Assembly (NCBI GenBank): GCA_051294375.1
Contig: CM119270.1
Location: 19,223,572-19,287,571, forward strand
Source of the DNA: Paraspadella gotoi
Taxonomy: Eukaryota; Animalia; Chaetognatha
Reading direction: 5' to 3'
Length of the DNA: 64,000 nt
Part shown: in pieces, positions 1 through 28,264 of the stretch
Numbering within the stretch: position 1 is the stretch's first letter
Layout of the letters: the number at the start of each line of letters is the position of its first letter
Notes under the pieces: generated by a model
What the model saw: the letters and a program-made list of their open reading frames with translations, nothing else
The model's database searches: none
Told to the model about the DNA's origin: nothing
Position numbers and translations under genes: made by a program

Positions 1-49
1 TTTCTTAAAGAAATACAAACAAGTTCTTAATTAATATTTCTATTTTTAG

Positions 50-357
50 GTTTTTGACTGGTTAGTCGAAATGCCAGTTGGTCATCCTAAAAATCCCTAT
101 CATACAACTGTCTGGGGAGATTTTTATGAACTCAGCATAAATAGGAGTCTACGTCGTTCTTAGAAATCGAGGAAGACTTTTTCAATGGAGATTTTCACAA
201 CAGCGACCATGCTGAAATGAGACGAGTCGATAATGCGAGACTTCAGATCCAATTCCATCCAAAATCGGAAAACAAAGCTTTAACAGTATTGATTTTATCG
301 ACTTTTGATGCTAGTTTAACAATGTCATCTGACAGAAAAGTGTCAAAAGATTACTAA
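50..357 (+). pseudogene. Polinton/Maverick major capsid protein, C-terminal fragment
   Basis: 160-357 translates LEIEEDFFNGDFHNSDHAEMRRVDNARLQIQFHPKSENKALTVLILSTFDASLTMSSDRKVSKDY*. This fits the Polinton capsid C-terminal pattern (H..x.GN.RL.x.F...T.x.xx..FD..x.I...R.V..DY*). Frameshift near 160, candidate splice acceptor at 48-49, and the protease start follows immediately. Confidence 0.7.
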
Positions 358-374
358 AAAAACAAACAAAAAAC

Positions 375-479
375 ATGAATACTTTGGAAATTGAAAAAAT
401 TCTAACCGAGGACGTCTGTACTAAAAATCTATTTTTGGGAGTTTTTCCCATGAATCGCGTCCCTTCAAAAATTCCCAGT
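375..479 (+). pseudogene. Polinton adenain-like cysteine protease, N-terminal fragment truncated by a repeat end
   Basis: MNTLEIEKILTEDVCTKNLFLGVFPMNRVPSKIP resembles the MNT.QI..IL..D......F.GVFP.D.LP start of Polinton proteases. Similarity stops at 480, before the catalytic His. Confidence 0.7.
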
Positions 480-585
480 AGAGATAGTAAAAGGTCTGTT
501 CTATTGCGAAAAATGCCAAGAATGTTGATGTACATTCCTTTCTGATGACGTCATCACTTCCGGCCACACCCACTACTTCCGGTAT
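480..585 (+). repeat. TIR-like end starting AGAGATAG with GATGACGTCATCACTTCCGG motif
   Basis: About 488-552 is the reverse complement of about 2061-2128. Shares its start and CRE/ETS motif with the ends at 6100 and 34010. Confidence 0.6.
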
Positions 586-1513
586 GGGCAGTGATTTCTA
601 TCGAGGAATTTAGCAAAAAAACCACTTTTTTCAATACTGTTAGAATATTACCAACAAAAATGATTAAATTTTAACTCTAAGACAAAGTTGGCGAGACTAC
701 AGATTAATTAAAATCATCTGCTGCATTTTCTAATCAAGAATCAATATCATTTTTGCTACTTTTAATAAAAAAAATTATGTCCATTTTTGTCCATTTTGAC
801 TTTTGTCTTGAGATTTGAACGCTAAGATCATTGAAGAAAAATTTTTTACTCCGGCTTTTGGGTCCTTCTTATCTTCTTTACCTCTGAGTTGGTTCATTTG
901 CCATTAGTCATCTATTGTTTGCCTATGTATTAATTTTTAAATTGATGAGTAAAAAACTTACATTTTTATATTTTATTACAATTTGTTAAACGAAAATACT
1001 TCAAAATGTCCACAATTCTAATCAAATATTCCCTATTGTTGGTGCTTCTGGTACCTAAAAAATTAGGGCAAAAAATTTAATAGTTTGGCTGCAAAAAATT
1101 TTTAAGCCTACTTTTAATTTGTGAGTATTGTGAGGTGCGTTTATTTTAAACTAAAACTCGGTTTTTGACTTATTTTATAGTTTTAATAGATGAGAAATAT
1201 ACTAAGGTTAACGAATTAAAAAAACCGGCATTCTTTTAAATGTAATGGAAAGCGTCAGTAATTTTTTTCCTCTCAATCGACAGGTTTTTGCGGAAAAAAT
1301 TTCCGCAAAATCTGTCCGATTTTTTTAAATCTGCTTGGCAACCAAAACTTTGAATAAATCATACGCCTACCGAAGTTTTCTCGAAATAAAATTGAGAGAG
1401 AAAACAAGTTTATTTTTGTTTACAAACACGAGTTTTATTTTTGAAATGGACATGTTTGAATCTTTTTCGAGTCTTCTTCAGCGCAGTGTTAATTTTATCA
1501 AACATTATGATGA

Positions 1514-1555
<42 letters not shown>

Positions 1556-2055
1556 GTCCACCAAAGAATTGAGTTATGGATAGTATTGAGGGTGAAAACA
1601 GTTGTAGGACAGGAGTGACTGACTATGACGAATTAAAATAAAATTTAACGCTTATTATGTTGGCGTGAAGAATCAAAATACTTCACACAGATAGAAAGAG
1701 AAAAAGAGAGTCAGAGCGAAAGTTCGAGAAAGAAAGAAACAAGAAAAGCAGTGGAAAACAAAAACAAAGTTTAATAATATAGCGTGCCGGTTTTTTTGCC
1801 TAAGCAGTAGTATATCTAAAAAACGCGACAGATCTTACGAGCAATTTTATCATTAAAAGTTCTTACCATGAAAAATCGTTTTTAGTTTCTTTTAATAAAG
1901 GCTGATACCGTAATTGGAATGAAATCATGTCTTACCCGTATTTGAAAGCATAGAAATTCACCCAGTGAGTTCTATGTTATAAGGAGAAGATAACTAATGC
2001 CAACGTTTTAAGTTTCAATTTCAATGTTGAAATACCCAAATCAAAATCACTGCCT

Positions 2056-2305
2056 ATGACATGACGTCATCGGAAAGGAATGTACATCCGCATTCTCGGC
2101 ATTTTTCGCAATAGAACAGACCTTTTTTTATCCTAACAATTTCTTTTATATTTTTACCGATATGACATGACGTCACCACTTCCGACCACACCCACTACTC
2201 CCGGTATTACACGACGTCATCACTTTAGACACACCCACTACTCTCTGGTATACGACGTCATCAATTTGACTGTACTAACTTCTTTGTATGACATGACGTC
2301 ATCAC
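2056..2305 (-). repeat. Inverted partner of the 480 end plus a cluster of ATGACGTCA/CACTTCCG motifs
   Basis: ATGACGTCATCGGAAAGGAATGTACATC...GCATTTTTCGCAATAGAACAGACCTTTT mirrors 488-552. 2167-2205 is a direct copy of 545-585. Confidence 0.6.
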
Positions 2306-2935
2306 ACAGTCATCGACTCTTTAGCCGCGCCTACGACTTGTTTCGTATGACACGCGTGTGTATTATTGCATTCATAACATATTTGCAATAGTATAGACTG
2401 TCTTTATTCTAACGGCAATCTTTTAATAACTTTATCAAATTGTTTAGTATTTTAGATAATGTCATAGTTTTAAAAAACAAAGTCTTATTTAATATTTAAC
2501 ATGTCTATATAATAAACTAGAAACGTTACTCGAAAATCAAGATCATTTGTTATTAACTCGACTAAGAAAATGTGAAGGCGTAGTCTATCGAAAAGACGAC
2601 ATCGTAAACAAAAGAACATTTATTAGAAAATATAGGACAGCAAAGAAATGGAACTAATAATGGAAATCGAATTGGAACTACGAAGCAAAAAATGCCAACG
2701 GGGAAGCAAGCTTCCCCGGTGGGATTTTTTATTTAGGTATTAAAGTTTGGCGGGTCATGCGAAGCATGGGCCGCCAAACGATTGTGGTTGATTGTGGGCG
2801 ACGTCGTCAAAAGATTGAGTCCTTTGTTTGAGTAATCGCTGCCGTCTTTGTACTTGAAGTGGGAGTGGAAGAGGAGGTTGCAATTGATCGTAATACCGAT
2901 GAAGATGATGATCGATTGTTGTTAATGTGGGCGAG

Positions 2936-3268
2936 TTATTGAAGAGAGTGAGTCCTTTGTTGAGCAATCGTCGTCGTCTTTGTAAATGAAGTGGGAGTAG
3001 AAGAGAAGGTTTTAGTCGTGAATAGGTAGTTTATCGAAGTGACGATTGCCGGCGGCATCGTTGACGTCATTGAGACCTTCGTCGACCTTTTCCAAGGCGG
3101 AATGTCATCGGGACCAATTGTTTCCAACTTTAAGGAAAAAAAAAACCTTTCTTTTACCAATTGAAAGACGAAAAAGATAATAAACAATAGACTTACATCG
3201 TCAGGTCCCAAATCTCCCACGATGCTTGGAATCAAAGAAAAGAAATGAATGATGACAAAGAGATGCAT
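2936..3268 (-). CDS. Thr/Ser-rich mucin-like protein with signal peptide (paralog 1, possibly truncated)
   Basis: Exon 1 (3268-3197) MHLFVIIHFFSLIPSIVGDLGPDD; GT-AG intron 3196-3128; exon 2 LETIGPDDIPPW followed by a Thr-rich tract. A degenerate Thr-rich continuation extends past the stop to about 2740. Confidence 0.6.
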   Translation of the reverse strand: MHLFVIIHFFSLIPSIVGDLGPDDVSLLFIIFFVFQLVKERFFFSLKLETIGPDDIPPWKRSTKVSMTSTMPPAIVTSINYLFTTKTFSSTPTSFTKTTTIAQQRTHSLQ

Positions 3269-3659
3269 CTTTCGAAAATGGCGGAAAAGAGACGCAAAGG
3301 CGGTGGAATGAATGAATGCGAAATGAGAACAATTGAAAATAAAAGATTTGGATTAAAAAGAAACTTAAAAAAACTGTCTGGTGATAAGAAAGAATTATGT
3401 CTTTTGGCCCGCCTCTTATAAAAAATCCTTATCTTTAGATTTTGATCTCTTCTTTAAGATGAACATTCCGCAATGTTCTTTGGGGGAAAAAAGGGTTTAA
3501 ACCTTTACAATTTACTTTGTTGAAATTTTACCATCTAATTTTTTTTTTCTTTTAATCTTTTTTTTTTGTTTGTCGCCCTCGCAGATTTCTCATGCTATAA
3601 AAAGCCTCGTCTTTTTTGATTTTTTCAGATTGTCGGTTTTTTAAGATCATTTTCTTTAT

Positions 3660-5201
3660 ATGGAGGTTGACCAAGACATTGTTACATCTTTAAGTTGTCC
3701 AGTTTGTTTTTTGCATTTTACGACGAAAGATAAAATCTATACCTGCACTCAAGGTGAGAATAGAAAAAAATGTGTGTATTTTGTTTTCTTAAAAATATTT
3801 TTCATTTTCTCATCGATCCAAAAGATCGCTCTTATTAAAGTTTTTTCTCGTTTAAAAACATAAGATTCTCTTTTCCCCTTACCCTGTTAAAAATAGGGCA
3901 CCCCATCTGTTCTCAATGTTTTGAAAAAATTATTTGCAATAAAAGCCCAACCTGCGCAATCTGTCGAAATTCGGTAATTAATATTAAGAAGTTAATGGAA
4001 TAAAATAGAAATATTGTATATGGTTTTTTTATTTAGTTTATAACTTGCTGCGAAATTTGTCATCAGTTTAAATTTACAACATATTCAAGAGGCAGAGCTT
4101 TGGAAGAAGCTATTGCCGTCATTGAAAAAAACAAGTAACACCTCATTAATGATACCCTTATTAATGTTTTTTTTTAAATATTCATATCTGTCTCTATCTC
4201 AGATCTGACATCCAATCTCGTGACTCGACCATTAATTTCTTACAAAGTTCTTTAAGAGAAAATCAATTGGACTTGATTCGTTTAAGAAGAGAAATTAGAC
4301 GCAGAGATGAATTCGAACAAAACCAATGCCCGCAAAAAGGTTAATATTTATGTCTATATTTTTATTTTATATATTTTTATTATCAATGTTTGTAATATTT
4401 AGGCGCTTGGATTTGACATCGAGTCAGGGAGATGATGTAATTCCTATCGATCAATCAATCGTTTTAATCGAAAACGATTTTTTAGCGGACAATGCTGCCA
4501 ATCAGAGTACCGGCAGTGTCTCATCGACGACCGCTAAGAAGCAATGCAAGAGGTAAATGAAAAAAAAATAGATCTCTCTCTGTCTCTGACTTTTTTTTAT
4601 TTTATTTTATTATTTTAAGACCTCAAAATCTGTCTCTACGCCAATCAACCCTACACGAGTCCGATGGATTTGACGACATGCATCGTGGGTCAAAGATGGT
4701 CTTGTCTGACTACTGGGTTCTTTCTCCCTACGTCATTGTCAAGTTCACCGAGGATGAGAGTGGCATTTGGATCTACAAGGAAAGATACGTCACTAATCCT
4801 CATATTGGCCACGGAGATGGATCGGTTACTACGATTGCTTCAAAATCTCGAGCCATCGAACCGGTCACAAAAATTACCGTGAACAAAGAGGAGTCGGAAC
4901 GTCTCATTCATCTGTACGAAACGAAAGCCAAAGACGAGCTGAAGAAAGCTGGAGAGTCTCAGCGACATCGCCGACACTTAACGGCCCGCGTTATGCCGTG
5001 ACGGAGAGTTTGGGAATATCGATGAGCGTCTACAAGACCAAGGACGACTTATCGAAGGTTAACGTGTCCTTGCGTCCATATTTTATGGATCCAAATCTGG
5101 GTTTGCTATTCGTCACGTCTAATTTGGCCGGAATCTCTTTAAGCGCCGATGAATTTCATGGATTGCTTAAATTGATCCAAAAGATTGTCAAAGTGATCTA
5201 A
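3660..5201 (+). CDS. Six-exon gene: C3HC4 RING finger, coiled coil, KRRL motif, tandem PC4-like domains (two single-base frameshifts)
   Basis: Exons 3660-3753, 3897-3973, 4037-4134, 4203-4339, 4403-4552, 4620-5201, all GT-AG. Splicing assembles CPVC..CTQGHPICSQC..CAIC. The C-terminal VSLRPYFMDP..GISLSADEFHGL resembles PC4 IDIREYWMDP..GISLNPEQWSQL. Frameshifts near 4320 and 4960. Confidence 0.75.
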
Positions 5202-5347
5202 AAAAAAAACAAACTCAAAAAGAAACATTAATAATTGTTTATAATTGGGAAATGCCATCTATGTAATCGTTACTATTAAGCTTGCCAAAAAAAATAAAAT
5301 AAAATGCGCGCGCATTATGCTTAATCTTATTATTATTAATATATCAG

Positions 5348-6099
5348 ATGAAAAGAAGAAAAAAAATGGACGACGCCGAGATAGACTTGCTTAAAGAGAA
5401 AGACTTTGTCGATGATTCGTCGAAAGATTTTTGGTTTATGACTCCGGGAGTGGGCGTGAGAGTCTCTTCGCCACCGAGAAGTTATCACAAATCGCATTTT
5501 GGCTTTTTAGCGAAACGTCTCCTTCAGTCTCTCATCGAGGTGGATCGAATCCTTCACGACAATTTTCGCCCGCTCGATCACGCCGCTAACTTGACCGACA
5601 ATCTATCGTCGTCGTCGGAGCGATTCGCCTCAATCTTGGCGAGAGGCAAAGGAAGATGTTTGTAGAACTCTGAGCACCTGCGCGGCGCCCAACCTTCATT
5701 TATTGGGGATGTTTATGGATAGGGCTCTTTACGACGCTACTTTGATGACCGATATTATATCGGGTTTAAAACTAACTCAAAACTATTTTTCTCAAAACAA
5801 TGAAAATAGTCGCCATCTTCCGAAGGAAATGATTGTCATTCTCAGCACCATTGGTTGTGAACTTCATCATTTATGTAAATGGTTCGAACGTTACGACGCC
5901 TGCTTGCCTTTAGCCATTTTGCTAAATGCGGAGGGAAAGATTTGGCGTTATAATGTTATCAGTCATAACAACATCTTTAAGGAGGATAACAAAAATCTTT
6001 TTAATAAGTATCATTTATATTGGCAGAGAGAAGTAAATATTTTGTGTCATGTAAATTCTCCTCACGTTTATTTTTCAGATCCGTATGAGGGTAATTGTA
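5348..6099 (+). pseudogene. Hypothetical element-borne protein, disrupted near 5665-5700
   Basis: Two consecutive protein-like ORFs (5348-5665 and 5703-6152). The last codons run into the terminal repeat. No recognisable domain. Confidence 0.4.
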
Positions 6100-6850
6100 A
6101 GAGAGGGAAATATAGGCGTTCAGACGCAAAAATTCTTGACATACCTATCTGATGACGTCATCACTTCTGGTCATGACGTCATCACTTCCGGTCATGACGT
6201 CATCACTTCCGGTCATGACGTCATCACTTCCGGACATGACGTCATCACTTCTGGGGCATGACGTCATTTGCAGCCTTTGGCTATAACGTCATTGAAACAC
6301 TCCTATATTTTTTCCGTTATGACATCACCACTTAGCATTAAAGACGACGTCACTCTCACTATTTGCTGTAATTTTCTTTCTTGCGACTCTGAGAATGTTT
6401 TATGAAAGATGTCAGATTTTAGGTAATTAGTATTATCTTTTTAGCTAGCTGAATTCGATTTAATAGAAAAGAATTCCATGTATTTCGATTCACACCTAAT
6501 TCAACTGAAGAACTGGATGTTTACTGTCACCCATGGAACTTATGAATTTGAAACATTCGGGATTCTCGAAGAGAATCCCGAATGTTTCATTAAATCCTTT
6601 ATCATTTGTAGAAATTAAATTAAATGAATATTTGAAGGTAAAGATCGAGTTTAATATTTTGTTTTTTTCTTTATCGGTAGCCAGAGACATCACTCGCGAA
6701 TAAAGCGAAATCAAGACAAAAGATAAAGATCGATTATGGATATCAGTGAGACACTGATGGAAGTAGTATAGACAGAAACATTAGGGGATTCTCTTGTGAG
6801 AGAGAATCCCCTAATGTTTCATTAATAAACCTTTATCATTTGTAGACGTT
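6100..6850 (+). repeat. Left terminal inverted repeat (diverged) of a Polinton-like element
   Basis: Starts AGAGAG. 6100-6730 is a diverged reverse complement of about 33060-34010, for example GAGAATGTTTTATGAAAGAT and AATATTTGAAGGTAAAGATCGAGTTTAATATTTTG. Confidence 0.7.
6151..6270 (+). repeat. 21-bp tandem array (ATGACGTCATCACTTCCGGTC), about 5 copies
   Basis: Directly visible. The unit holds the palindrome ATGACGTCAT and ACTTCCGG. Confidence 0.95.
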
Positions 6851-6879
6851 AAACAATCATAATTATTATGACTGTGTAT

Positions 6880-7407
6880 CTATTTTATTTTTTGAACAAT
6901 TATGACACACATGATTGCAATTTTCACATCTAAAAGGATACATATCGAGTATTGTTTCAAATTTATAATACAAGAAATCGATAAATTGTTCAACATTATT
7001 TGTCCTTCGATTTTGAGGCCAGTAAAATCTTCGCTTCTCAGAATGTCATTGTCTTCGTTATCAACCTTTATCAAATTAGGTATAATTTCTAGGGTTGTGT
7101 CATCTTCATCATAATCGTTAGAATGGAAATCGATGAAAAAGTTTTTTTTACTTATACGCATAGTTTCGTCGTCGTCATAATCTCCCGTTTCATCGAATGA
7201 TAACATCTTAGGTTCGTACAAATGGTCGTTAATTATTTTTATATTTTCATTGATGAGACTTTTGTATTCTTGTAAATCGATGATGGTTGAAGTTGTTACA
7301 TGCATTTTGGGATCATTCAGTTCTATCTTTATGATTTTAATCTTTTCATTTTTTAGTCCCACAAAAAACAAGTTTTCGGTTATTTCATATTTTGTTTCTA
7401 ATTCCAT
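6880..7407 (-). CDS. Hypothetical 175-aa protein, possibly divergent PC4-like fold
   Basis: Intact ATG ORF. The beta-strand then IIDLQEYKSL helix pattern loosely recalls PC4. Co-oriented with its neighbours. Confidence 0.5.
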   Translation of the reverse strand: MELETKYEITENLFFVGLKNEKIKIIKIELNDPKMHVTTSTIIDLQEYKSLINENIKIINDHLYEPKMLSFDETGDYDDDETMRISKKNFFIDFHSNDYDEDDTTLEIIPNLIKVDNEDNDILRSEDFTGLKIEGQIMLNNLSISCIINLKQYSICILLDVKIAIMCVIIVQKIK

Positions 7408-7435
7408 CTATTAAAAAATACAAATTATTAAAGCT

Positions 7436-7867
7436 TTATTTGTACAACGACAAAATTGAATCATGAGTATCATAAAAGAATTTTAAAAACGAAATATTTT
7501 TTTCATTTCCTCTGATGGCAATGTCAAATTTGCTTTTATTATCGCCCATCTTGCGAATGAATAGTTTGTTTCCCTCTGAGTTGTCGCCAGATTTTAATAT
7601 TATTTCCATTTTGATTTCATGACCGAATTGTATTTTCACGCTTTGAAGCCATTCTTTTTTTTCAGTCTTTTTTACAAATTTGAGAAGTCTTGATAAGTTT
7701 TCTTTATTCACGTAATTTTTAAATTCTTCTCCCGTCCAACAAATTTTTTTACGAACGCAAAAATTAATGCCAGTTTTTCTAATTTGTTTAATGTAAAGAT
7801 AACCATCATCGTTAGCGCGAAAATGTATTTGGTGACAAATATTTACACGTTCGTTCAATTTCGCCAT
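7436..7867 (-). CDS. Hypothetical basic 143-aa protein, possibly tandem PC4-like
   Basis: Intact ORF with good ATG context (AAGATGG) and TATAAA about 35 nt upstream. Contains LYIKQI..KICWTGEEFKNY. Confidence 0.55.
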   Translation of the reverse strand: MAKLNERVNICHQIHFRANDDGYLYIKQIRKTGINFCVRKKICWTGEEFKNYVNKENLSRLLKFVKKTEKKEWLQSVKIQFGHEIKMEIILKSGDNSEGNKLFIRKMGDNKSKFDIAIRGNEKNISFLKFFYDTHDSILSLYK

Positions 7868-7988
7868 CTTTAATGTTATCTAATTTAATCAAAAATGATT
7901 TATATGGACGTTTTTTTTCTATTTCCTTATATTGTGACTTATCATACATTACTCATAGGTACAAACGTGCCCGTTAGGCGTAACCCAA

Positions 7989-8166
7989 TGATTCATTTCC
8001 TCCACTCCTATAATACGATAATGCATAAATTCTAAAAGGAGTTTATTTACCTCAGGCGTCAACTTCTCTTTCCCCTTTAGCTGCAACACACTGACTCATT
8101 TCCCCACTCCCATAGTTTGATAATGCGATAAAATGTTAAAAGGAGTCTATTTAAACAGGTGTCAAT
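7989..8166. promoter_or_regulatory. Two-copy direct repeat (about 103-bp period) with AP-1-like TGA(C/T)TCA sites
   Basis: TGATTCATTTCCTCCACTCC...GATAATGC...AAAAGGAGTTTATTTA repeats as TGACTCATTTCCCCACTCC...GATAATGC...AAAAGGAGTCTATTTA, upstream of the 7867 gene. Confidence 0.5.
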
Positions 8167-8303
8167 ATCCATTTCGGTTTCTATTTCCCACACCTTAGTA
8201 TAACAGAAGAAGTTTAAAAGACTTTAGATATGAGAATTTATTAAGGGAGTCAGCCATTTTTTCTACTCCACTCCACTCCTTGGGCATACATGCGTCATAA
8301 AAA

Positions 8304-8926
8304 TTAAGTGGCGGTATAGGCGTAGTCCCAACGCAATTCTTCGTCGTTGGGCCTTTCATTGATTTCTTCGAGTTCTGTTGTATGTAAAAGATATATGTAT
8401 GATATAATATTTTTAAAATAAAGTAACGTATATTTTTACCTATATTTTCGTAGACATCATTATCCGTGGGATCATCCACGTTTCTGTACCATCCAACCGC
8501 AATTGATTCATCCCTTGTCTGTAGATCATCTCTAACTCTGTCCATTAACACTCTCACCTCCTGCCCTACTCTTTCGTTGTCGTATTTGTTTATGTAATCT
8601 TCGTCGTTGTCGCTAAAATCATCCCATTCTGCTTCTGGAGGCGCCGCCAACGGAACACGAGGTGGCGGTGGTAAATTTGCTAACATCAAATCCATTTCGT
8701 CTTTATTAACGGGTATCATGATCGCCGGTTGTAGATATTCCTCGGGGTTTAAGTTTGTGATGGTCGTTTCCCCCCTATGACGTCGCATATCCTGAAAGTT
8801 AGGCGTCCTCAGTCGTTTTTTTGCAATGGCTAATAATTTTGTTATTATCCATCCGGTTATCATGAATAGAATAATTGCTTGCAAAATCTTTATGATTCTG
8901 AGATCGTAATCATTTTTCCTGGTCAC
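8304..8926 (-). CDS. Single-pass membrane protein with Tyr- and Pro-motif-rich acidic tail
   Basis: Hydrophobic IIKILQAIILFMITGWIITKLLAIA then KKRLR. The tail has LPPPPRVP, YIN, YDN, YRN and YENI. A GT-AG intron at 8439-8375 gives the C-terminus ELEEINERPNDEELRWDYAYTAT*. The start is uncertain. Confidence 0.65.
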
Positions 8927-8954
8927 GATACAAAAAATGAAATTATATTAGAAC

Positions 8955-9537
8955 TTATTCGTAATGAAAAACAAAATTTAAAATGAGTCGTTGTTGTTGT
9001 TCTCTCCCCCCTTCGAGAGCAACGGCGTCGTCGTCCTTGTTTTTTTCGTTTCGACGACGCCTTTTGTTTTTTTTACCGTCGACGGTGAGAGAGGGAGAGG
9101 GAGGAGGAAGAGGAGGAGGAAGAGAGGAAGGAAGAAGAGTAAGATGGAGAATGGGGGGAGAGAAAGGGAGAAGGATGGCGATAGGTCGACGTCGAAGACG
9201 ACGACGATGACGATGGCAACGTCGCCGACGCGGTCGATGACTTTTCTTCTTACTCTCCTCGACGACAAACTGGTCGCCGCCTCCCGCGGCGAATGGAATT
9301 TCGCCGAGATATTCGGCCACCCCCGAAGCAGCGATGGCGGCGTTTAAGGCGCCTTTGTCTGAGTTTATGTGAGAGAGATTTAACCTCTCTCCAAATCCGG
9401 AGTCCTTGTATAACGCGGCGATGATTTCGTTCGTCGACTTCGCCGTACGCTCGCGCGATTCAAAATTGTCGATGCTGAGGCATCGACTAGAATTTCGTCT
9501 CAACGCCGAGGTTACCGCCGAGGAGACGAATCTGTAA

Positions 9538-9575
<38 letters not shown>

Positions 9576-9901
9576 TAAAAAGAATGTACATCCGAAGAAA
9601 ACGAACTAACGAACGAATAATTACCTCAGAGTTCGAAAATTCCTCGGGTTCGAGGACGAGGGCGGTTCCGTAAGGTCCCATTTCTGATTTCCAAGAACTC
9701 GCCGGATTCCCGCAAACTTCGGAATCGGCCGCTCCTTCGCCGCCGTCACGAAGGGAATCCCCTTATCGCCACCCTGGGGAAAATTCGTCCGTCGATTTCA
9801 AGATGGAAACGACTAGCGACCATCTGTCCTGTATTTTAAACCGCGGCTCCATGCCACCCATTCTCCCGCCGACTCTATTTAGTCTACTCTCGACGTAAGT
9901 A
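8955..9901 (-). pseudogene. 3' part of a tandem PC4-like gene split by the Tc1/mariner element
   Basis: Removing three apparent 1-nt insertions gives GIREFWKSEMGPYGTALVLEPEEFRTLR|FVSSAVTSAL (PC4: DIREYW..GISLNPEQWSQL). The domain opens with RFKIQDRWSLVV. GT-AG intron 9624-9532 has a (TC)n tract. Confidence 0.6.
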
Positions 9902-10739
9902 CGTAACTTTTCTCTAGACTCACGAAGTTCAGGGCTCTCATAACTCTCGAAATATGGGCTAAAATTTCTTTATATTCGAGGATCAGATGCGGGAATAATC
10001 GGTTTATTGCCCACCTGACGGATTTTAAGAAATTTCAAAATTTTGCGCTCCAAGCCCTAAATTTTTTTAAAATTATTTCTCATCTAGTCTTAAAAGTATT
10101 AACCCAAAATAATTAAAATTTTTATTGAAAGTCGTCCTAAGTTGAAGCTATAAAATGACGTAAAAAAATTTAAAAAAATATTTCTAATTTTTATGTTATT
10201 TTGAAAAGTTGTAAAAAAGCTATGATACCATTGTTCCTTTAAAAAGGGTTCAATTTTAAAAATTTTGGATACAAACAATTCTCTCTCTCGTGAGAATGTT
10301 GTAAGATTACTTTATCATTAAAAAAAATTTGTTTAACTAATGAAAATCTTTTTACAATTTGTCAAAAAAAAAGGAAATGCTAAATATATATGTTTAAATC
10401 TGAATTGTCTCAGTACATCCAAAAGTAGAAGCTATACTGATTCTAAATATACTTTCACATTTAAAAAATATTTTTTACAACCAGAGATATTTATTTACAA
10501 AGTGACAAAAAATTGTAAAATCAACCTTTTTTAAAGCTTAATAAAAACTGATGGAATGAATATTATTCAATGAAATTTTGCATTCTAATCCAAATAACCA
10601 ACAATTTTAAGACAACCAAAACTTGCAACCACTCACTTTCCCAAAAAAAAGATATACATTGAAAAAGATATATTTTTTAATTTGAAATCTATTTTTTTTA
10701 ATTTTCAATGAATTTTGATCGTTATTAATTAAAAAATCA

Positions 10740-11130
10740 TAATAGATCAGTCAGTTCCTGGATAATCTATATACTCAATAAGTATTCATTCTGTCGAGAT
10801 CCACAGTTAGAATTATAAAAATAGGCTAATGATTGGTCAAATAAATATGGTAGGTAAATTTTGGAAGAAAATGATTGAATTAATTAAATCTTTTATGTTC
10901 ACCATAAGATAGCCCCTTTTCAAAGTTTTCTTGTTCCAAACGTCTGCCCTCGGCAAAGACAAAAAGAAGGACCCTGTTATGCAACTTACCATAAGGTAAG
11001 GTCGACAGTCTTGAAAATAATCTAACAAAGATAACAAGACCAAAATATTATTTAAGCGCTTTGCTTCATTAATCATTAACGATTCCCCAGTTGTTGTAAA
11101 AGTCTGAAAAATTTTCATCGCTGCTTTTAG
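10740..11130 (-). pseudogene. Possible highly decayed Penelope GIY-YIG endonuclease
   Basis: Fragments across frames: VSC..., GQT, EHKR...KFTYHIYLTNH..FIIL..MN. Many stops and shifts. Confidence 0.3.
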
Positions 11131-11624
11131 TTAAGGTTATTGAGGGGTTGTTGAAAAGTGGTCAGTGTGAAATAGTAATAAAAATAATGAGTGAGAGATT
11201 AATGGAAAGAATGAAATATTCAATGTGAGATTGATGGAGAGAAAGAAAGATTGATTGGGAAATTGATAAAGAGAAAGGAAGAGAGAGTGAGAGTTTGATG
11301 GAGAGAAAGAAAAATTGAGAAATTGAAGGAGAAAAAAAAAGATTGATTAAGAAATTGATGTAGAGAGAAAGATTGATTGAGAGATAAATAAAATAATATT
11401 ATGGCAACGTGAATAAATTAGACAAAGTTTTAAATATTTAAAAATTAAAATTTTTAAAAATATATTCTGATAAAGATTAAAAAGTTAGATAAAGGTAAGT
11501 ACTACAAATTTTAAAAATATTAATGATAAATGGGTTAAATTAGACTTTTACTCACTCTTCATCCCTGTCCTCATCTTCACCTATTCTCACATCTTACCAC
11601 TGTCCCTTACTAAATTCTTTGTTG

Positions 11625-11661
<37 letters not shown>

Positions 11662-11693
11662 ACTCAATGTTTGTAAAAAATTTTTGTGTCTTT

Positions 11694-11745
11694 TTCAAAT
11701 GCTGATGAAGGCTTGAAGAACAAAGCCGAAACATGTCCAAATTTT
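11694..11745 (+). ncRNA. Minimal type I hammerhead ribozyme (Penelope-like)
   Basis: CTGATGA (11702), A-GGCTT/AAGCC stem II, GAAA, palindromic CATG, then TC. AATAAA follows at 11751. Stem I is weak. Confidence 0.75.
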
Positions 11746-12069
11746 ATGCTAATAAAATTATTTTGTTGTTCCACGAAAATTTCGTTTCTTCTAATTCAAC
11801 AAAACAACAAAAAGAAAGGATTAACACAATGTCTACCGAGAAAAACCTTAAAAATTATCATCATCATTGTTGAGGAACTAGTAGTCAGCCTGCCTTGCCA
11901 GGTGTATCTCCATCCTATGACCCATCGCGCCATTACTGGGGAGACTGCCGTCAACTTCCTCGCCGGAAGTGGCGCGGCCGCATACAGCGCCCCTTTGGTG
12001 GCGCCGTTGCGAGTGACGCCGAGACCCTTTGTCGGCGAGGGTGTCAGCCTCTTTGTCACTGCCTCAGTC

Positions 12070-12240
12070 AGTTGTCCACAAGTCCATCAGAAGTGTGGGA
12101 CACCACAAAGTCTATTGCCCTCGTACAAGACGTCATGATCTGCTACAAGTGGTGACAAAACGTGACTGAGTGGCAACGTGCCTCAGGTCCCTGTAAAAAG
12201 GTCGTTTAGGACGGGTTGAGGTCTCACAGTGACTGGTCTC
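12070..12240. repeat. Dispersed repeat of unknown family (also about 15910-16095 and 20340-20540)
   Basis: Shared ACAAGACGTCATGATCTGCTACAAGTGGTGACAAAACGTGACTG core. Confidence 0.7.
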
Positions 12241-12409
12241 TCTGTGAAACGTGAAAAGGTAAGAGCATAGAAAGGCAGATAGGCTTGAGTAGAACAAATG
12301 TAGAAAGCGAATCATGATGAGCAAAATACTATCTAGGAAAAAGTTAGCAAACATTTTTTTTTATAGTTCATTTATTCAATAAAAAATATACAAACATGGT
12401 AAAACATTC

Positions 12410-12630
12410 TCATATTTGTATGCCCTCCTCGGCATCGACATGCCTGCATTTGTTCTGGGCATGCTCTCGTAAAGTGAATTGAGGTAGAAGTAAATGTTTT
12501 TCCACACCGTAAAAAATTGCAATGGTGGAACGAGGGATTCCAAGTCTATTGCTGATGAATTGTTGCGTCTTTCCTCTTTCTCAGAGCTACATTCACTTTA
12601 TGAACCAAGAAGGGGCTGTCTATTCGGCAT
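12410..12630 (-). pseudogene. Tc1-type transposase remnant: N-terminal HTH joined to the C-terminus
   Basis: ERGKTQQFISNRLGIPRSTIA is directly followed by VWKNI..YLNSLYESMPR..MQAC.DAE.GHT.Y* (with frameshifts). The DDE core is deleted. Confidence 0.7.
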
Positions 12631-13355
12631 AACCAAATTAAAAAAATGAAAAAAATAACTAACTCAATTTGAAATAGCAAACAATAACTCAATACCAAGA
12701 ATTGTGGAAAACTAAAGGATTTTTTCGCCATTTTCACTTGAGGTAGCAATCTTATTTTGCCTCTCACTTCTATACGGTGATCTACGAAAAATGGAAGGAA
12801 GCAACTGAAGGAAATTTAGTGTAGAATCTGAAACATCCTGATTTTTTAAAAATCGACAATTTTTCGAGTAGATATCCTCAATTAAAAATGTTCTAACTTT
12901 TTCTAGATAGTAAACAGATAGCAATGGCATCTCTCAACAATAATCATCATCCATTAAATTTAATAGTTTTGTTAATTTTCATTGACAAATTCATTAAAAT
13001 TTCAAAAATTTCAAAAAAAATAATACTCTTCTAACTTTTCAATCTCTATCAGAATCCGTTAAAAAAATTAGAATTTAATAAAAAAATTTTGGACATTATA
13101 TAGTATTTGGATAATATAAAATAGCTTCCATGCGTTTAACCATAAGATAAATATTAATTTTTTAAATTTTACATCTTTAATAAACACATTAACATATTTA
13201 TACCAGACTTTTGTTAGTTCATTACTTATTACTCTGTTGTCGGTCCGTCGGTCCTCCCAACTTTTGTTGGTAAAATCATTTTATCATATCAGAAAATCGA
13301 ATTATGATAAATAATGCAAAAAAAAAGAATTTGATATTCAACAACAATTTTTTTA

Positions 13356-13410
13356 TTTATAAACGGACATGTTTCGGCTTTGTAATTCAAAACCATCATC
13401 AAGGTTTATA
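13356..13410 (-). ncRNA. Degenerate hammerhead ribozyme (Penelope-like), second copy
   Basis: Minus strand reads TATAAACC-TTGATGA-TGGTTTT-GAATTAC-AAAGCC-GAAA-CATG-TC-CGTTTATA-AATAAA. Stem I is 7 bp; the core C is altered. Confidence 0.65.
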
Positions 13411-14744
13411 GAATTTGTAAAATTATAGGCAAACTACGTATGTGAAAAAGAAGAGGGAGAGAGAGAGAGAGAGAGAGAGAGACTGTCATAGACATAGGTA
13501 CAAGTATTCGAATATAGCTCTCTCTCTCTCTCTCTCTCTTTCTAACTGCTTATCCCTAATCCCAACGCTAATCCTAAAACCAGATTTCTAATCCTTATCC
13601 CTTGCCTTAATCCTCATCCTTAACCCTAATCCCTAACCCTATCCATAAATTATTCCCTCAATCTAAACTTATCCCTAACCAAAACCCTAAGAAAAACTTA
13701 ATGAGAACGCCGGCCGTAATTTTCATTGGTAAGCTTTCAGCAATAACAACGCGCAACCTTTGATTTCTGCCCTCTCTCTTTTTCTCACTCACTCACTCAC
13801 TTGCTAACTCACTTACTCGTCAATTACTTTTCACACACTCTTTTTCAACTGATGTCTTTGTCTTTGTTTTTTCCGCACTGTCTGTAAATATTGACGCGAC
13901 GCTTACTGTTATAAATATTTTTACCCTACAAAAAATTAATTTTCTCAATCTTAAACTTGTTGTGTTAACACTGCACATTTTGGTTAATAACTTTGAAACT
14001 AATCAAAAATTTTAAAATCTGTTTTCTTTCATTTTAAACTTTAAGTGGTATAAAATTACAGATACAAAATTTTAATTAATAATTTTTAGTGGCTAGTTTT
14101 TATAAGTGATTGAAAATTGTGTTTTTTTAGGTATTTTTGACAGTTATTGGGTCATATTACTCAAAGTTAATTTTTAAAAGTCTATATATATACATATATT
14201 TGGAATCAGCTTGATCCCCTCTTTGTCTTGGGACAGAAAAATTTAATATAGACTGCATATCTCAAAAAAGGACAAAATGTTTTAATCTTGTAATCCAAGT
14301 TTTTCTAATGTGGTAATATTTTTTTTTTAATTTGGGGTTGTCTTAGGTTAAAGTGCACGTTTTACAATATTTTAAAATCATCACGTAATTTGATTTATTA
14401 TTTTTGACTATTTTAGTAAAAAAGTTTTTAAACTGATTTTTATGTGATAACTCCTAATGTTTTTTAAAATACCTCCCTGAAATTACATCAATATGTGCGG
14501 GCATGTTAGTCGATTATATGGACCAAAATAAAACAATTAAAAAAGAAATAGCTGTTTTAGAAGCAAAACAAAATAAAAAATAAATCAAGACCTTAGCGCA
14601 AAATTTTTGAATTGATTATTTTCCATCAGGTGGGCAATAGAGCAAATTTTCCTTCATCTTTTTACGAAATCTTAGCTCATTATAACGATAACTTTATGAG
14701 TTATTCATTCCCTGAACTTCGTGGAGTCTAGAGAAAAGGTACTG

Positions 14745-14918
14745 TAAGTTCTTCGTCTCCAACGCCCTCCACTCGGCGAGCTTAAACCACAGAGTCAAGA
14801 GTTCGCTTCCATTCGGTTTTGTCTCTTGAATTCTCACGGAATTTGTCTTTAAGTTTGCGTGACAAGTGACGCTAATGCGCTCTCCGATTGAAAACCGAGT
14901 AAACACGGACGAGTTCAT
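14745..14918 (-). pseudogene. 5' PC4-like domain of the split gene
   Basis: MNSSVFTRFSIGERISVTCH..SVRIQET..LTLWFKLAEWRALET resembles PC4 FQIGKMRYVSV..IDIRE..ISLNPEQWSQL. TATAAAAG lies near 15035. The ORF tail at 14694-14744 is transposon TIR. Confidence 0.55.
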
Positions 14919-15059: not shown

Positions 15060-16265
15060 TTTCTCGAAGGAAAAAAAGAGAGAGAGAGACAGAGAGAGAG
15101 GGAGATTGAGAGAGAGAGAAAAATGCGGGATCTCTTAGTGTATCACTCTCTCTTTTTTTTTTCCCCCCGATGTTGTCTCGCAATAAGTTATCGTCATTTT
15201 GGCTTTTTTTTTATTTGGAATCAATTCAACTTTTTTTTATATTTAAAAACAGATATCTCCGCCTCCACATTAGCCGCTCTTTAACATCTAGAGCCGTCGA
15301 TGGGGGGCAAGGGAAAGGACTGTCTCTCTCTCTCCCAAACTCTCCCGCCAACCAAACGTCGTCCCTTCGCCATTCCGACCAGACATCGTCCCTTTGCCAT
15401 CTTTGCCATCGTCGTCTTCTCTCACATTTTTTGGATTATTTTTTTGGATTAAACAATGTAAGTTGATTTATTTTAAATTTTTAAATTTTTTTTGTAGAGA
15501 TTTAGTCGCGACATATTATCACCAGTTAATGAATTATCCGATGCCAGCTTTTTTTTTTGGGAGTGTCTACGAAAAGCCTTTCTTAAACTATAGATTTCAA
15601 ACTAATAAAATTACTACTTTCTAGGGTTTCATTTAATTCTTCGGGTCATTCTTGATTTTAAAAATCGGTTTGGAATAGTTATCTTGTCATTAAGCACAAC
15701 GCACTGTTGCTTATTCTAAGACTTCAAAATTCGCTATGACAAAAGTTTCTTTCAGAGTTTTTGAACTAATTGAGCAGAAAAAATCTATTTTAACTGTTGC
15801 GTTATAAATCTACTTTTAACTATTGGCTTAAAAAAAAAAGGAAAATTAAGCTTCTCGCGAGAAGAAATCGAGCGTAGACACTCACGACTTAGTTAGAATC
15901 AGCGATTTTTGTCCACAAATCCATTGAAAGTGTCTGGGGTCGAAGAAGTGGGACTCCACAAGTCTATTTGCCACATGACAAGACGTCATGATTCTGCTAC
16001 AAGTGGTGACAAAACGTGACTGCAGTGACAACGTGCCTCATGTGTCCCCATAAAAAGGCAGTTTTGGGACGGGCACAGTCTCACTGTGACTGGTCCCAGT
16101 CTCACAAAATTTTAAAATTTCATGCAACATTTTTCGAATCTAAACATGTTTTCTCACTTTCCATTCCCCATACCCCTAAAATCGCTATCTAATAAATGTT
16201 TATAACAATTATAAAAAGTTCTTTACAATGATTTTCTAATTGGTTTAGACATAAATTTTGTCTAA
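15060..16265. repeat. Block duplicated at about 19270-20720
   Basis: Colinear copies that differ mainly by small indels. Confidence 0.8.
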
Positions 16266-17224
16266 ATTCTTCGCCATCGAATTCCTCTTCTCGCCCGAAT
16301 CGGGATCTCTCCCTGTTTCTTCTCATATTTTCTAATACTCTTATTTTTTCTTTTATAGTATTTATTAATGCTCGATGTTCGTTTGGGCAGAGAGGGTCGA
16401 TTTTTTAATTGATGTTGAATCAATTTATTTACTTTTAATAAAATGGTGAAAACCACCAATAAAGATTCCTACGGTCAATCCCGACTGTAAAAAATTTATC
16501 ACCAAATTCATCGTTACATCGCCTTCTTCCTTTATTCTCTGTTGCAGTTTAGCAGTTTTGGTTATTCCCAACGAAATGGTCGAATCTTCATAACCTATGG
16601 AACTAGTCCATGGGTTAGTTATTTTTGAAAGCGGTTTTATTTTGTTCCATCTTACTAGTAGTATGAATTCCATCATCATTTGTTATCCTGTTGTCATCAT
16701 CGTTGTCCAAGTTAACTCCGTGGAACTTAACATTTTGCCGCTCGTGCTTTTTGTTTCATCAATTTTGGTCGTTTTCGTCGGTTCCAGCGGTTTTAGTGGT
16801 GGTGGGTGGTTCTATCGTCGCTTCCATGTGCCGTCGTCGTCTCTTCGTCTACTCTCCTACCAGTTACTCCCTTGGTCGTCATCGTCATTTTGTTCGTCTC
16901 GCTCACTTCTTTTGTTCATCTCGCTCGTGTTGAACTTATTTCGATATCGTTCGATCCGTGCTCCATGGTGGTGTCGTGATGGAAACGTCTCGTCCTAACT
17001 ATCGTCGTTGACTTTTTTGTCCACCAGAAAGGGGGACGCGTTTTCTTCACCGTTGACCCTTTCGGTTTTACCGTAAGTATCTTAATGGGTTTTTTTTATT
17101 ATTTAAACAATATTTTAATAAAATAAAGTATTACTAACGAGTTTACCTGATCGGGTTCCACCACGCAAAAAACATCTTTTAACAGTAAGTAAAAGATTAA
17201 CGAGGTTGTAAGGACAGTTTTCAT
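16262..17224 (-). pseudogene. Mucin-like type I membrane protein (paralog 2, frameshifted)
   Basis: Exon 1 (17224-17147) MKTVLTTSLIFYLLLKDVFCVVEPDQ; intron 17146-17081; then TRPPFWWT, a Thr-rich region, TM FLQSGLTVGIFI(V)VFTILLKV and basic tail KNRPSLPKRTSSI. Confidence 0.7.
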
Positions 17225-17447
17225 TTTTAGCTGTTATTACGTTATTACAACGTCGATTTTGGATCGAGACTGATTTCTTTAAAAAGAATCGATAAGGCCG
17301 GCGGAACGTAGCCAAAGTTTTTTTGATAATAGAGAGATAGAGGGAAAAAAATAAAAAATACACACTGTGTAATCATGAAACCGAGCCACTTATTCTTGAC
17401 TTTTGAGTTTTGACATTTCAAGTGCTTTCAATATGGGTATAAATAAG

Positions 17448-18390
17448 NNNNNNNNNNNNNNNNNNNNNNNNNNNNNNNNNNNNNNNNNNNNNNNNNNNNN
17501 NNNNNNNNNNNNNNNNNNNNNNNNNNNNNNNNNNNNNNNNNNNNNNNNNNNNNNNNNNNNNNNNNNNNNNNNNNNNNNNNNNNNNNNNNNNNNNNNNNNN
17601 NNNNNNNNNNNNNNNNNNNNNNNNNNNNNNNNNNNNNNNNNNNNNNNNNNNNNNNNNNNNNNNNNNNNNNNNNNNNNNNNNNNNNNNNNNNNNNNNNNNN
17701 NNNNNNNNNNNNNNNNNNNNNNNNNNNNNNNNNNNNNNNNNNNNNNNNNNNNNNNNNNNNNNNNNNNNNNNNNNNNNNNNNNNNNNNNNNNNNNNNNNNN
17801 NNNNNNNNNNNNNNNNNNNNNNNNNNNNNNNNNNNNNNNNNNNNNNNNNNNNNNNNNNNNNNNNNNNNNNNNNNNNNNNNNNNNNNNNNNNNNNNNNNNN
17901 NNNNNNNNNNNNNNNNNNNNNNNNNNNNNNNNNNNNNNNNNNNNNNNNNNNNNNNNNNNNNNNNNNNNNNNNNNNNNNNNNNNNNNNNNNNNNNNNNNNN
18001 NNNNNNNNNNNNNNNNNNNNNNNNNNNNNNNNNNNNNNNNNNNNNNNNNNNNNNNNNNNNNNNNNNNNNNNNNNNNNNNNNNNNNNNNNNNNNNNNNNNN
18101 NNNNNNNNNNNNNNNNNNNNNNNNNNNNNNNNNNNNNNNNNNNNNNNNNNNNNNNNNNNNNNNNNNNNNNNNNNNNNNNNNNNNNNNNNNNNNNNNNNNN
18201 NNNNNNNNNNNNNNNNNNNNNNNNNNNNNNNNNNNNNNNNNNNNNNNNNNNNNNNNNNNNNNNNNNNNNNNNNNNNNNNNNNNNNNNNNNNNNNNNNNNN
18301 NNNNNNNNNNNNNNNNNNNNNNNNNNNNNNNNNNNNNNNNNNNNNNNNNNNNNNNNNNNNNNNNNNNNNNNNNNNNNNNNNNNNNNNNNN
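17448..18390. other. Assembly gap
   Basis: Run of N. Smaller gaps occur throughout the window. Confidence 1.
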
Positions 18391-18669
18391 TGATTATGAA
18401 TGATGTCCTGATCTTTTCCATCCTTGGCCCGCAACTCCTCGATCCTTTGCGCCGTGACCTCCATCTTCTTTTCATTTTCAATAAAATTGTTTGACGCCTG
18501 AGTAAACTCAACGACTTCCTTTTGCAAGACACAGGTTGGTTAAAGTTTCAGATCTTCGGGACTGTGCTCTCTCTCTCCAACAAAAGTTTTTTTTACACCT
18601 CAAATCGAGCACCACTATGTCGGAATAATACTTGCACAGAGAAAAATATACTTTGTCTCTCATCTTGCC

Positions 18670-26365: not shown

Positions 26366-27551
26366 AATCGTTTAAATGCTCGATCTTCTTTAAATCGGCA
26401 ACCGCCACGGGACAAGTTTTCGAAAGATCGCCAAAGTTAATTTCGGAGGCGTACCAAAGATATTTGTTAGCCCTGGACTTTGAGTCCGTAATCTCTGGGT
26501 GAAGGGAAGCTAACAGAGACAAGAGTAAACAATCTTGCTCACGAGACTTAATGTTTACGACCGCCTTCTTTTTTTCGATAAATTTCGGGGTAGGGATGAA
26601 AGAACCGACTTTCTTCTTCTTTCTTAAATTGTAGAAAAAGGATGGTAACATACGAATAAAGGTCAAGTCCACATGTTCCAGCCTTTGGAAGATGAGAAAG
26701 CTTCCTGAAAGAAGAGAAAAAATGAAATAAAAAAAAGATTGCCTCGGTGAAAAACAGTAAAATAAACAAAACGAAAAAAGTCAATAGTAAATGATACCTG
26801 ACTCCAGTTTATTTACTATTTGTAAAGTAAATATTTCCATGATGGTATCCAAAACCTCATCCAAGTCTGTTCCCAAATTAATCAATTCCAATTTTGTGTC
26901 GTAAAAGAAGGATACCAAGGAATTGTCGTCAGGATGCAGGTAGGATACCAATATACAAATGTGAACTTTCACAACTGGAACGCGTCTCAACATTTTTTTA
27001 ATGTATGTTTTTAATTGCGTTTTCAGACGCATCAGGGCTATTTTGTAGTTAGCCACTTCCAACTTGGGGACCAAACAAACCGTTTTTACAACGTCCTTAT
27101 ATTTGCAACAACCATCCGGGCTGACAGAATACATCTGACCTCCAACATCATCTTCGTAATCTTTCTCCTCCTCATCCTCCTCTTCTTCTTCCTTCTGTCC
27201 TCCATTCAACGGGGCAAAGTTGATGATCGAAGAACGAACACCGGGTTTGACGGCCGTGATTTCCACGTTGCTGTCGTTGTCGTCAGCTGGGCGTTTCGCA
27301 GCGCCTCCAATTTGCGGCTGCAAGCTGCGACTGCAGCAAGGTTGCTGCTCATCGTCGGCGACGGCGGATGAACCCACAAGGAGAAGGGATTTTCCCGGTT
27401 CTCTCACGAAAGGTATGGGAGAATACGGAGGAGAAGAGGAGGAATTGCCATCATCTTCGTTGTCATCATCTTCATTGTCACGATCATTGTCATCATCTAG
27501 TTTTTAAATCTCTTCGCTGGTCTTATCATGGTTTAGAGAAGAAGAAGCCAT
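26366..27551 (-). pseudogene. Polinton/adintovirus protein-primed DNA polymerase B, N-terminal region, intron-containing and truncated
   Basis: Splicing out 26797-26705 gives KLESGSFLIFQRLEHVDLTF..GSFIPTPKFIEKKKAVVNIKSREQDCLLLSLLASLHP..RANKY..EINFGDL..PVAVADLKKIEHLN. This fits the GSGW..GSYIPLP..KKAxxNxxN.D..CF..LA.LHP..FE..N block. No exonuclease or polymerase motifs follow. Confidence 0.8.
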
Positions 27552-28230: not shown

Positions 28231-28264
28231 AATTTGTTTTAACTAAAATGTAAGTTAATTATTT

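What the first reader, a model, noticed from the sequence alone, without database searches (positions are those of the whole stretch)
3660..14918. Expansion of PC4-like ssDNA-binding domains, often in tandem pairs, across the viral gene cluster
Seen: good PC4-type motifs at 4990-5201 (LRPYFMDP..GISLSADEF), 9500-9860 (GIREFW..LVLEPEEF after indel correction) and 14745-14918 (FSIGERISV..FKLAEWRAL). Weaker ones lie at 4700-4930, 6880-7407 and 7436-7867. Established: PC4/Sub1 binds ssDNA as a homodimer and co-activates RNA polymerase II, and phage T5 encodes a PC4-like protein. Inference: tandem domains may form single-chain pseudo-dimers that serve as the strand-displacement SSB and/or transcription factors of this virus, in place of an adenoviral DBP.
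Basis: partly seen in the sequence, partly recalled or inferred. Interest (0 to 1): 0.8.

Follow-up and report, generated by a model that had tools for sequence, protein, structure and literature searches.

The report
One PC4-like domain in decayed Polinton

Summary
Partly confirmed. Of the six sites named, only 4986-5198 passes tests. It ranks first of 206 window frames against two PC4 profiles (HHalign probability 73% and 56%; 86% with a third), its only PDB sequence hits are PC4, and it folds alone to four strands plus a helix (pLDDT 72.5). Pfam and structure searches stay below significance. It likely ends a six-exon gene (3660-5201) with a RING finger and coiled coil, broken in this copy.

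The 9490-9860 motif lies in no single frame and is only suggestive. 14697-14918 and both halves of 6883-7407 weakly resemble each other but not PC4. 7439-7867 has only a low-confidence repeat-topology model (pLDDT 40). 4690-4950 has no support.

The context is a decayed, likely multi-copy Polinton-type element, supported by a polymerase N-terminal match (E 1e-8) and a protease N-terminus. Tandem PC4 proteins are already known in algae and oomycetes. My literature searches found no PC4 in Polintons, but this scan noted a PC4-like gene beside a Polinton polymerase on other DNA (e1-9963988, unchecked). The bulk-SSB role is untested.

The parts
4986..5201 (+). Domain B: diverged PC4-family domain (four strands plus helix); the one supported PC4-like unit
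   Evidence: PDB phmmer 3 of 3 hits are PC4, E 0.67-1.6; HHalign rank 1 of 206, P 85.6%; AF2 pLDDT 72.5, EEEE-H
3660..4998 (+). Predicted six-exon gene (exons 3660-3753, 3897-3973, 4037-4134, 4203-4339, 4403-4552, 4620-4998): RING finger, coiled coil, linker, domain A. The frame is broken between exons 4 and 5 and again between A and B
   Evidence: Five GT-AG introns of 63-143 nt, AT 73-89% against exons 52-67%; exons 1-4 give 135 codons and exons 5-6 give 176 codons without a stop (sites picked by eye). RING Pfam E 1.5e-4, below the curated cut-off
4690..4950 (+). Domain A: possible partner repeat of B by eye only; no statistical support
   Evidence: z -0.45; HHalign rank 13 and 21 of 206; no PDB hit
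6883..7407 (-). ORF C (175 aa): two units weakly like each other and like F; fold unknown
   Evidence: C1-F z 6.2, C1-C2 z 3.0, C2-F z 3.1; no PC4 match
7439..7867 (-). ORF D (143 aa): low-confidence model with (four strands + helix) x2 topology; not shown to be PC4
   Evidence: pLDDT 39.6; fold searches are noise; Atlas best 0.82, unnamed
9490..9860 (-). Locus E: broken across frames, with a possible 93-nt GT-AG intron (9624-9532); suggestive second PC4-like unit
   Evidence: 12-40 of 1000 controls reach its half-domain score; B-E z 5.4 with hand-chosen breaks; HHalign P up to 2.6%
14697..14918 (-). ORF F (74 aa): intact small ORF, gapless weak likeness to C1; not shown to be PC4
   Evidence: 12 of 62 identical and 28 similar to C1; PC4 z 1.7; PDB hits only antibody noise
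375..479 (+). N-terminus of an adenain-type protease, interrupted by a repeat insertion (context)
   Evidence: 21 of the top 50 matches among 8523 frames are protease ORFs, 0.84 expected; profile E only 1.1
145..357 (+). Possible major capsid protein C-terminus (label recalled; untested or unsupported by tools)
   Evidence: By eye only; no support
26367..26606 (-). N-terminal part of a Polinton/Maverick-type DNA polymerase, decayed, inside duplicated blocks (context)
   Evidence: 35% over 80 aa, E 1e-8, to the 1300-aa ORF beside a protease in L207; duplications
6100..6267 (+). End of a dispersed repeat with the 21-bp array; inverted relative at 33677-34014, shorter relatives at 479-561 and near 2060-2183
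   Evidence: depth about 10x its flanks in 2 of 4 runs, about 4x in the other two

Best explanation
This is the decayed accessory-gene region of a likely Polinton/Maverick-type endogenous virus, in which one domain (4986-5198) is likely a diverged PC4-family fold at the end of a predicted spliced RING and coiled-coil gene that would dimerise, bind melted single-stranded DNA and bring a likely ubiquitin ligase there. Shown: B's PC4-type sequence signal and topology, the RING motif, and the polymerase and protease fragments. Inferred: splicing, the A-B fusion, and pairing of B with itself or with A, since a lone four-strand-plus-helix unit is thought not to be stable (PMC7549692). Also inferred: a role as a nuclear regulator at opened viral promoters or origins rather than as the bulk strand-displacement SSB. 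E may be a second, broken PC4-like gene. C1, C2 and F are likely a small paralogue family of unknown fold. The copy in this window is broken and likely inactive.
For: B ranks 1 of 206 frames with two profiles (29.8 against next 15.8; 26.6 against 17.6), P 85.6% and E 5.5e-6 pairwise. Its only PDB hits are PC4. A single-sequence model gives E-E-E-E-H at pLDDT 72.5. In BFVD a PC4-domain protein ranks 2 (E 0.054). The strand-3 R-x-Y-aromatic motif is kept, with F at the place of the base-stacking W89 (role of W89 from PMC7145681 passages; numbering mapped by me). Five AT-rich GT-AG introns keep the RING in frame. Contigs of other copies show 3-4 gaps against the window across the A-B exon. Context: PolB E 1e-8, protease N-terminus. 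Contigs 3-5% divergent at about 5x the depth of a neighbouring stretch in X1 and X3 (the tool warns depth is no copy number).
Against: No Pfam PC4 hit. hmmsearch E is only 0.02-0.06 and a 22-codon frame beats it. Foldseek and VIA put COMMD and PH-like folds first, with PC4-fold structures at Z 3.1-4.0. The basic K-K-G loop of PC4 is replaced by L-A-G. No relatives of B were found. Splice sites were chosen by eye, and the A-B join is inferred across a frame break. 0 of 120 listed long PC4 proteins show a RING family (best 120 of 781). 0 of 145 protease-bearing viral loci carry PC4 (best E 0.45). The polymerase fragment lies 21 kb away across insertions and gaps, and no integrase or ATPase was found.
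Confidence: 0.55

Rival explanations
1. One reading: A, B, C1, C2, D1, D2, E and F are all PC4-fold units, too diverged for profiles, with tandem pairs forming single-chain dimers that act as the virus's SSB or transcription factors.
For: All units are 60-75 aa with a similar strand-and-helix pattern by eye. D's model reads (EEEE-H)x2. C1-F z 6.2 and B-E z 5.4. PC4-like folds often lack sequence similarity and single-chain forms exist (PMC7549692).
Against: 24 of 28 pairs have z of 2.0 or less, and nothing links the B/E pair to the C/F group. The F+C1 profile against PC4 gives P 0.1-0.7% and does not retrieve A, B, D or E. F alone ranks an unrelated frame above C, and BLASTP F-C gives only E 0.021 over 16 aa. 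D's pLDDT is 39.6 and its fold searches are noise.
Confidence: 0.25
2. B is a generic beta-meander plus helix (COMM-, NAC- or PH-like) and the PC4 resemblance is chance or convergence, so nothing here binds ssDNA.
For: The top structure hits are COMMD (E 0.17) and PH/FERM (Z 5.1). Pfam is silent. A short frame outscores B in hmmsearch.
Against: B alone stands clear in HHalign and full-domain tests, matching both PC4 motif blocks at the right spacing over 44-50 columns.
Confidence: 0.12
3. The RING and PC4-like gene is a host or transposon-borne gene, as in the PC4 expansions of bivalves, that merely lies among Polinton debris.
For: It has introns. The region is a nest of repeats and insertions. 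Bivalves carry 2-18 PC4 genes (PMC9223095, passages). No target-site duplication ties the gene to element ends.
Against: It is far more diverged than cellular PC4s, which are 27-60% alike within alignment A1. It sits 3 kb from the protease fragment among tightly packed orphan ORFs of similar read depth. A similar case was noted beside a Polinton polymerase elsewhere (unchecked).
Confidence: 0.12

Closest known systems
PC4/Sub1 C-terminal domain (Pfam PF02229; PDB 1pcf, 4usg, MoSub1 4bhm)
   Same: B: strand-3 and strand-4/helix motifs, 32% identity over 44 columns to the profile, four-strand-plus-helix topology.
   Different: Below the Pfam threshold; basic loop lost; likely fused behind a RING and coiled coil rather than a lysine/serine-rich tail (tail recalled); dimer and DNA binding untested.
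Phage T5 PC4 homologue (PDB 4bg7) and bacterial PC4-likes
   Same: Precedent for a virus-encoded PC4 fold in replication (PMC7549692); appears among B's weak structure hits (Z 3.1).
   Different: Standalone phage protein; this one is an intron-bearing gene in a eukaryotic element.
Single-chain PC4-like proteins (Pur-alpha, Whirly, MRP1/2) and multi-PC4 proteins of algae and oomycetes
   Same: Tandem architecture proposed for A-B, C and D; 120 of 120 listed long PC4 proteins have 2-4 domains.
   Different: No tandem pair here is shown to be PC4-fold; none of the 120 lists a RING family.
Polintons/Mavericks (adintoviruses)
   Same: Polymerase N-terminal match, protease N-terminus, variable accessory genes with zinc-binding motifs (PMC8502044, section 3.2).
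   Different: Heavily decayed; integrase, ATPase, matched ends and capsid not demonstrated; PC4 is not named in the main text of three Polinton papers searched.

Membership tests
PC4 family (domain B) | Pfam PF02229 at the gathering score | tested here: not met
   No hit at E up to 10
PC4 family (domain B) | Remote profile similarity over both motif blocks | tested here: met
   Rank 1 of 206; P 56-86%
PC4-like fold (domain B) | Four strands followed by a helix | tested here: met
   AF2 single sequence, pLDDT 72.5
PC4-like fold (domain B) | Structural superposition on PC4-fold proteins | tested here: inconclusive
   Pur-alpha Z 4.0, rmsd 4.7, 60 aligned; T5 homologue Z 3.1, rmsd 5.8, 62 aligned; others rank higher
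PC4-like fold (domain B) | Helix-swapped dimer | tested here: inconclusive
   See Tried and rejected
PC4-like fold (domain B) | ssDNA binding | not testable with these tools
   Needs a binding assay
PC4 family (A, C, D, F) | Profile similarity above window background | tested here: not met
   Ranks 9-151 of 206; z -1.1 to 1.7
PC4 family (E) | Profile similarity above background | tested here: inconclusive
   12-40 of 1000 controls, post hoc; HHalign P up to 2.6%
Single-chain PC4-like (D) | Repeat topology and superposition | tested here: inconclusive
   Topology fits, pLDDT 39.6, best Z 4.8 to a KA1 domain
PC4-like fold (A, C, E, F) | Predicted structure | not tested
   Both fold jobs went to B and D
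Polinton/Maverick | Protein-primed B-family polymerase | tested here: met
   N-terminal fragment only, E 1e-8 to the L207 ORF; that ORF's polymerase label rests on motifs I recall, Pfam gave only Endonuclease_7
Polinton/Maverick | Adenain-type protease | tested here: met
   35-aa N-terminus; 21 of top 50 matches are related protease ORFs; profile E 1.1
Polinton/Maverick | Capsid protein, integrase, packaging ATPase | tested here: inconclusive
   No Pfam hit in 93 frames; capsid piece unsupported; the element may extend beyond the window start
Polinton/Maverick | Terminal inverted repeats with target-site duplication | tested here: inconclusive
   Inverted arms 6096-6853 and 33073-34014 are only 74-84% alike, with no matching flanks

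The most novel reading that the evidence does not exclude
An animal Polinton-type virus lineage has amplified a PC4 fold into up to eight diverged units: single, tandem single-chain, and RING-fused. These supply its own ssDNA-binding and transcription-control kit and identify the missing SSB of Polinton strand-displacement replication; such elements could also be a source of the PC4 expansions seen in invertebrate genomes.
Probability: 0.2. Interest if true: 0.72.

Novelty: new variant of a known kind. Interest (0 to 1): 0.4.

Why it matters
Polintons are thought to replicate by protein-primed strand displacement (established knowledge), and my searches found no ssDNA-binding protein named for them. 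A PC4-family domain in such an element gives a small, directly testable candidate, and I did not see a RING plus PC4 fusion among the PC4 proteins listed. The value is limited by a broken copy, weak statistics, no relatives, and lack of proof for the expansion.

Tried and rejected
Homologue searches were empty: B by word search, full HMMER (0 hits), Atlas and phage tblastn; D; the F/C profile; capsid and polymerase pieces in viral contigs or phages. No whole genome is held. The homodimer prediction for B returned no answer and is no evidence either way. Sequencing runs: no RNA holder listed; the four runs laid are contigs and showed no spliced joint among the rows displayed, so splicing is open; F lies outside the stretch laid. 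A first PC4 motif scan of viral contigs gave 3 chance hits. Rows dropped: 3 of 9 genome hits were out of frame; 31 of 88 PC4 domains were dropped as incomplete; L234 was dropped as a duplicate of L207. The 12604-12669 hit was rejected as chance: 22 codons, one motif block only, antisense to a frame that looks by eye like a transposase helix-turn-helix (Pfam silent). Frame 9766-9969 ranked 2 but in a register that does not match E, so it was not counted. Joining E's presumed exons added nothing to its score. The 21-bp repeat was rejected as a specific PC4 target: it belongs to a dispersed repeat family, and PC4 binding is recalled as sequence-unspecific. PHROGs gave nothing for the candidates.
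Full report
Setting. The window is AT-rich, full of microsatellites and gaps, and has no held genome, which fits a draft animal assembly (inference). Parts of 3600-9900 occur in 9 runs of 3 studies of one organism. In the 4 runs laid, all 30 bins of 1-11300 are covered. Long contigs over 3959-7852 differ from the window by about 3-5% and have depth 127-159 in X1, against 28-30 for near-identical contigs over 7823-9030; in X3 the figures are about 1060-1230 against 203. The tool warns that depth is no copy number, so multi-copy status is a likely reading only.

Viral identity. Frame 26298-26780 matches a 1300-aa ORF beside a protease in viral contig L207 (35% over 80 aa, E 1e-8). I call that ORF a Polinton-type polymerase from recalled motifs; Pfam gave only Endonuclease_7. 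The 35 codons at 375-479 pull 21 protease ORFs into the top 50 of 8523 frames, against 0.84 expected. These hits are related to each other, and a profile gave only E 1.1. The capsid label for 145-357 is recalled and unsupported. No integrase or ATPase appeared in 93 frames. The inverted arms at 6096-6853 and 33073-34014 are 74-84% alike with no matching flanks, whereas Polintons have terminal repeats with 5-8 bp duplications (10.1101/2023.08.22.554363, passages). I read the region as nested, decayed Polinton-type debris.

Building a test. Pfam found PC4 in 0 of 7 frames and 0 of 8 trimmed domains. I therefore gathered real PC4 genes by motif scan (88 distinct domains, 57 kept as complete) and 369 domains from 120 proteins. 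The first set was selected on the motif itself and is over-conserved there.

Domain B (4986-5198). Its only PDB hits among 177,635 sequences are 3 near-identical PC4 chains (E 0.67-1.6). HHalign ranks it first of 206 frames: 29.8 against 15.8, and 26.6 against 17.6. A 28-sequence profile gives P 85.6% over 44 columns. Full-domain scoring gives z 6.1, and 0 of 400 controls reach it. Folded without an alignment it gives four strands and a helix at pLDDT 72.5. Against this: hmmsearch E is 0.023-0.063 and a 22-codon frame scores higher. Foldseek gives nothing at E 0.001, with COMMD first and Pur-alpha, PP7 coat, MoSub1 and the T5 homologue at ranks 9-33. VIA tops at Z 5.1 for a PH-like domain, with Pur-alpha at Z 4.0, rmsd 4.7, 60 aligned. 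BFVD ranks a PC4-domain protein second (E 0.054). I put B's PC4 ancestry near 80%.

The other sites. A, C, D and F rank 9-151 of 206, with z from -1.1 to 1.7, and 21-163 of 400 controls reach them. PDB searches of them gave noise or nothing. E is split over frames. After I narrowed the test to the C-terminal half and made frame changes cheap, 12-40 of 1000 controls reached it; C2 did almost as well (15-66 of 1000); HHalign gave P up to 2.6%. Of 28 pairs among the eight units, four stand out: C1-F z 6.2, B-E z 5.4 (breaks chosen by hand), C2-F z 3.1 and C1-C2 z 3.0. F and C1 align without gaps, with 12 of 62 residues identical. However, BLASTP finds only E 0.021 over 16 residues, and the F/C profile matches neither PC4 (P up to 0.7%) nor A, B, D or E. 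D's model reads four strands plus helix twice, at pLDDT 39.6, and its fold searches are noise. An expansion is therefore neither shown nor excluded: PC4-like folds often lack sequence similarity (PMC7549692, parts 1-2 of 6 read).

Gene anatomy. From the ATG at 3660, five GT-AG introns of 63-143 nt, richer in AT than the exons, join a complete RING motif and a likely coiled coil (135 codons without a stop), and then a linker and domain A (176 codons without a stop). Read straight, the frame fails at codon 140, and A and B lie in different frames. RING support is Pfam E 1.5e-4, under the cut-off. Splice sites were picked by eye and are untested. Contigs of other copies carry 3-4 gaps against the window over 4622-5298, and one carries 25 gaps over 9585-9901, so the breaks may be specific to this copy or to the assembly.

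Mechanism. Shown: sequence signal and topology of B. From papers: PC4 dimerises by swapping helices and binds ssDNA on its sheets, single-chain forms exist, and phage T5 has a homologue (PMC7549692); W89 stacks a base (PMC7145681, passages). Inferred: B pairs with itself or with A, binds melted DNA at viral promoters or origins, and brings a RING ligase there. A multi-domain RING protein fits a regulator better than a stoichiometric SSB. If F, C or D prove to be PC4-fold, they are the better SSB candidates.

Novelty. Tandem PC4 proteins are not new: all 120 listed long hits hold 2-4 domains (59 with four, 11 with three, 50 with two), the named ones from algae and oomycetes, and none lists a RING family (best 120 of 781). 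Bivalves hold 2-18 PC4 genes (PMC9223095, passages). Full-text searches for Polinton or Maverick with PC4 returned one paper, where PC4 is a cluster label. Adintovirus with 'single-stranded DNA binding' returned none. Searches were seen as listings only. PC4 occurs 0 times in the main text of PMC11071308, PMC8502044 (section 3.2 also read) and PMC11071296. Their supplements, which hold gene tables, were not examined and could name it. A PC4 profile found nothing in 145 protease-bearing viral loci, which are mostly not of the animal type (inference; a close polymerase match occurs in 3 of them).

Verdict. One likely PC4-family domain, likely RING-fused, in a decayed Polinton-type region: a new variant of a known kind, interest 0.4. 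The full expansion with an SSB role has probability about 0.2.

Noticed in passing
window 479-2140: A roughly 1.6-kb element with inverted ends (483-554 and 2061-2132) interrupts the protease gene; it has very high read depth and shares the TGACGTCATCACTTCC motif with the 21-bp arrays.
   Followed up: partly
window 6152-6267 and 33677-33980: 21-bp arrays (5.5 and 14.4 copies) hold CRE-like and ETS-like motifs (labels recalled); the repeat end at 6100 begins AGAGA and appears to truncate ORF 5595-6152.
   Followed up: partly
window 30456-30761 (-): A second RING ORF (Sina_RING E 2.5e-5), weakly like the RING at 3839-4000 (tblastn E 0.001).
   Followed up: no
window 15325-30309: Blocks of 1-3 kb repeated two or three times at 80-92% identity, holding the decayed polymerase N-terminus.
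   Followed up: partly
window 34467-35081 (-): A 205-aa ORF matches phrog_8970 (unknown function, E 3.3e-8), the only clear family hit outside the RINGs.
   Followed up: no
window 8198-8947 (-): A 250-aa orphan ORF with a hydrophobic N-terminal segment, in a stretch of low read depth and near-identical contigs.
   Followed up: no
window 12380-12930 (-): Fragments that look by eye like a Tc1/mariner-type helix-turn-helix; Pfam silent. The opposite strand gives the chance PC4 motif hit.
   Followed up: partly
window 31419-32069 (+) and 16192-17095 (-): Two similar-looking Thr/Ser-rich, membrane-anchor-like ORFs in opposite orientation (by eye).
   Followed up: no
L207 1-4206: An environmental viral contig with a protease convergent on a 1300-aa polymerase-like ORF carrying an endonuclease VII insert.
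   Followed up: partly
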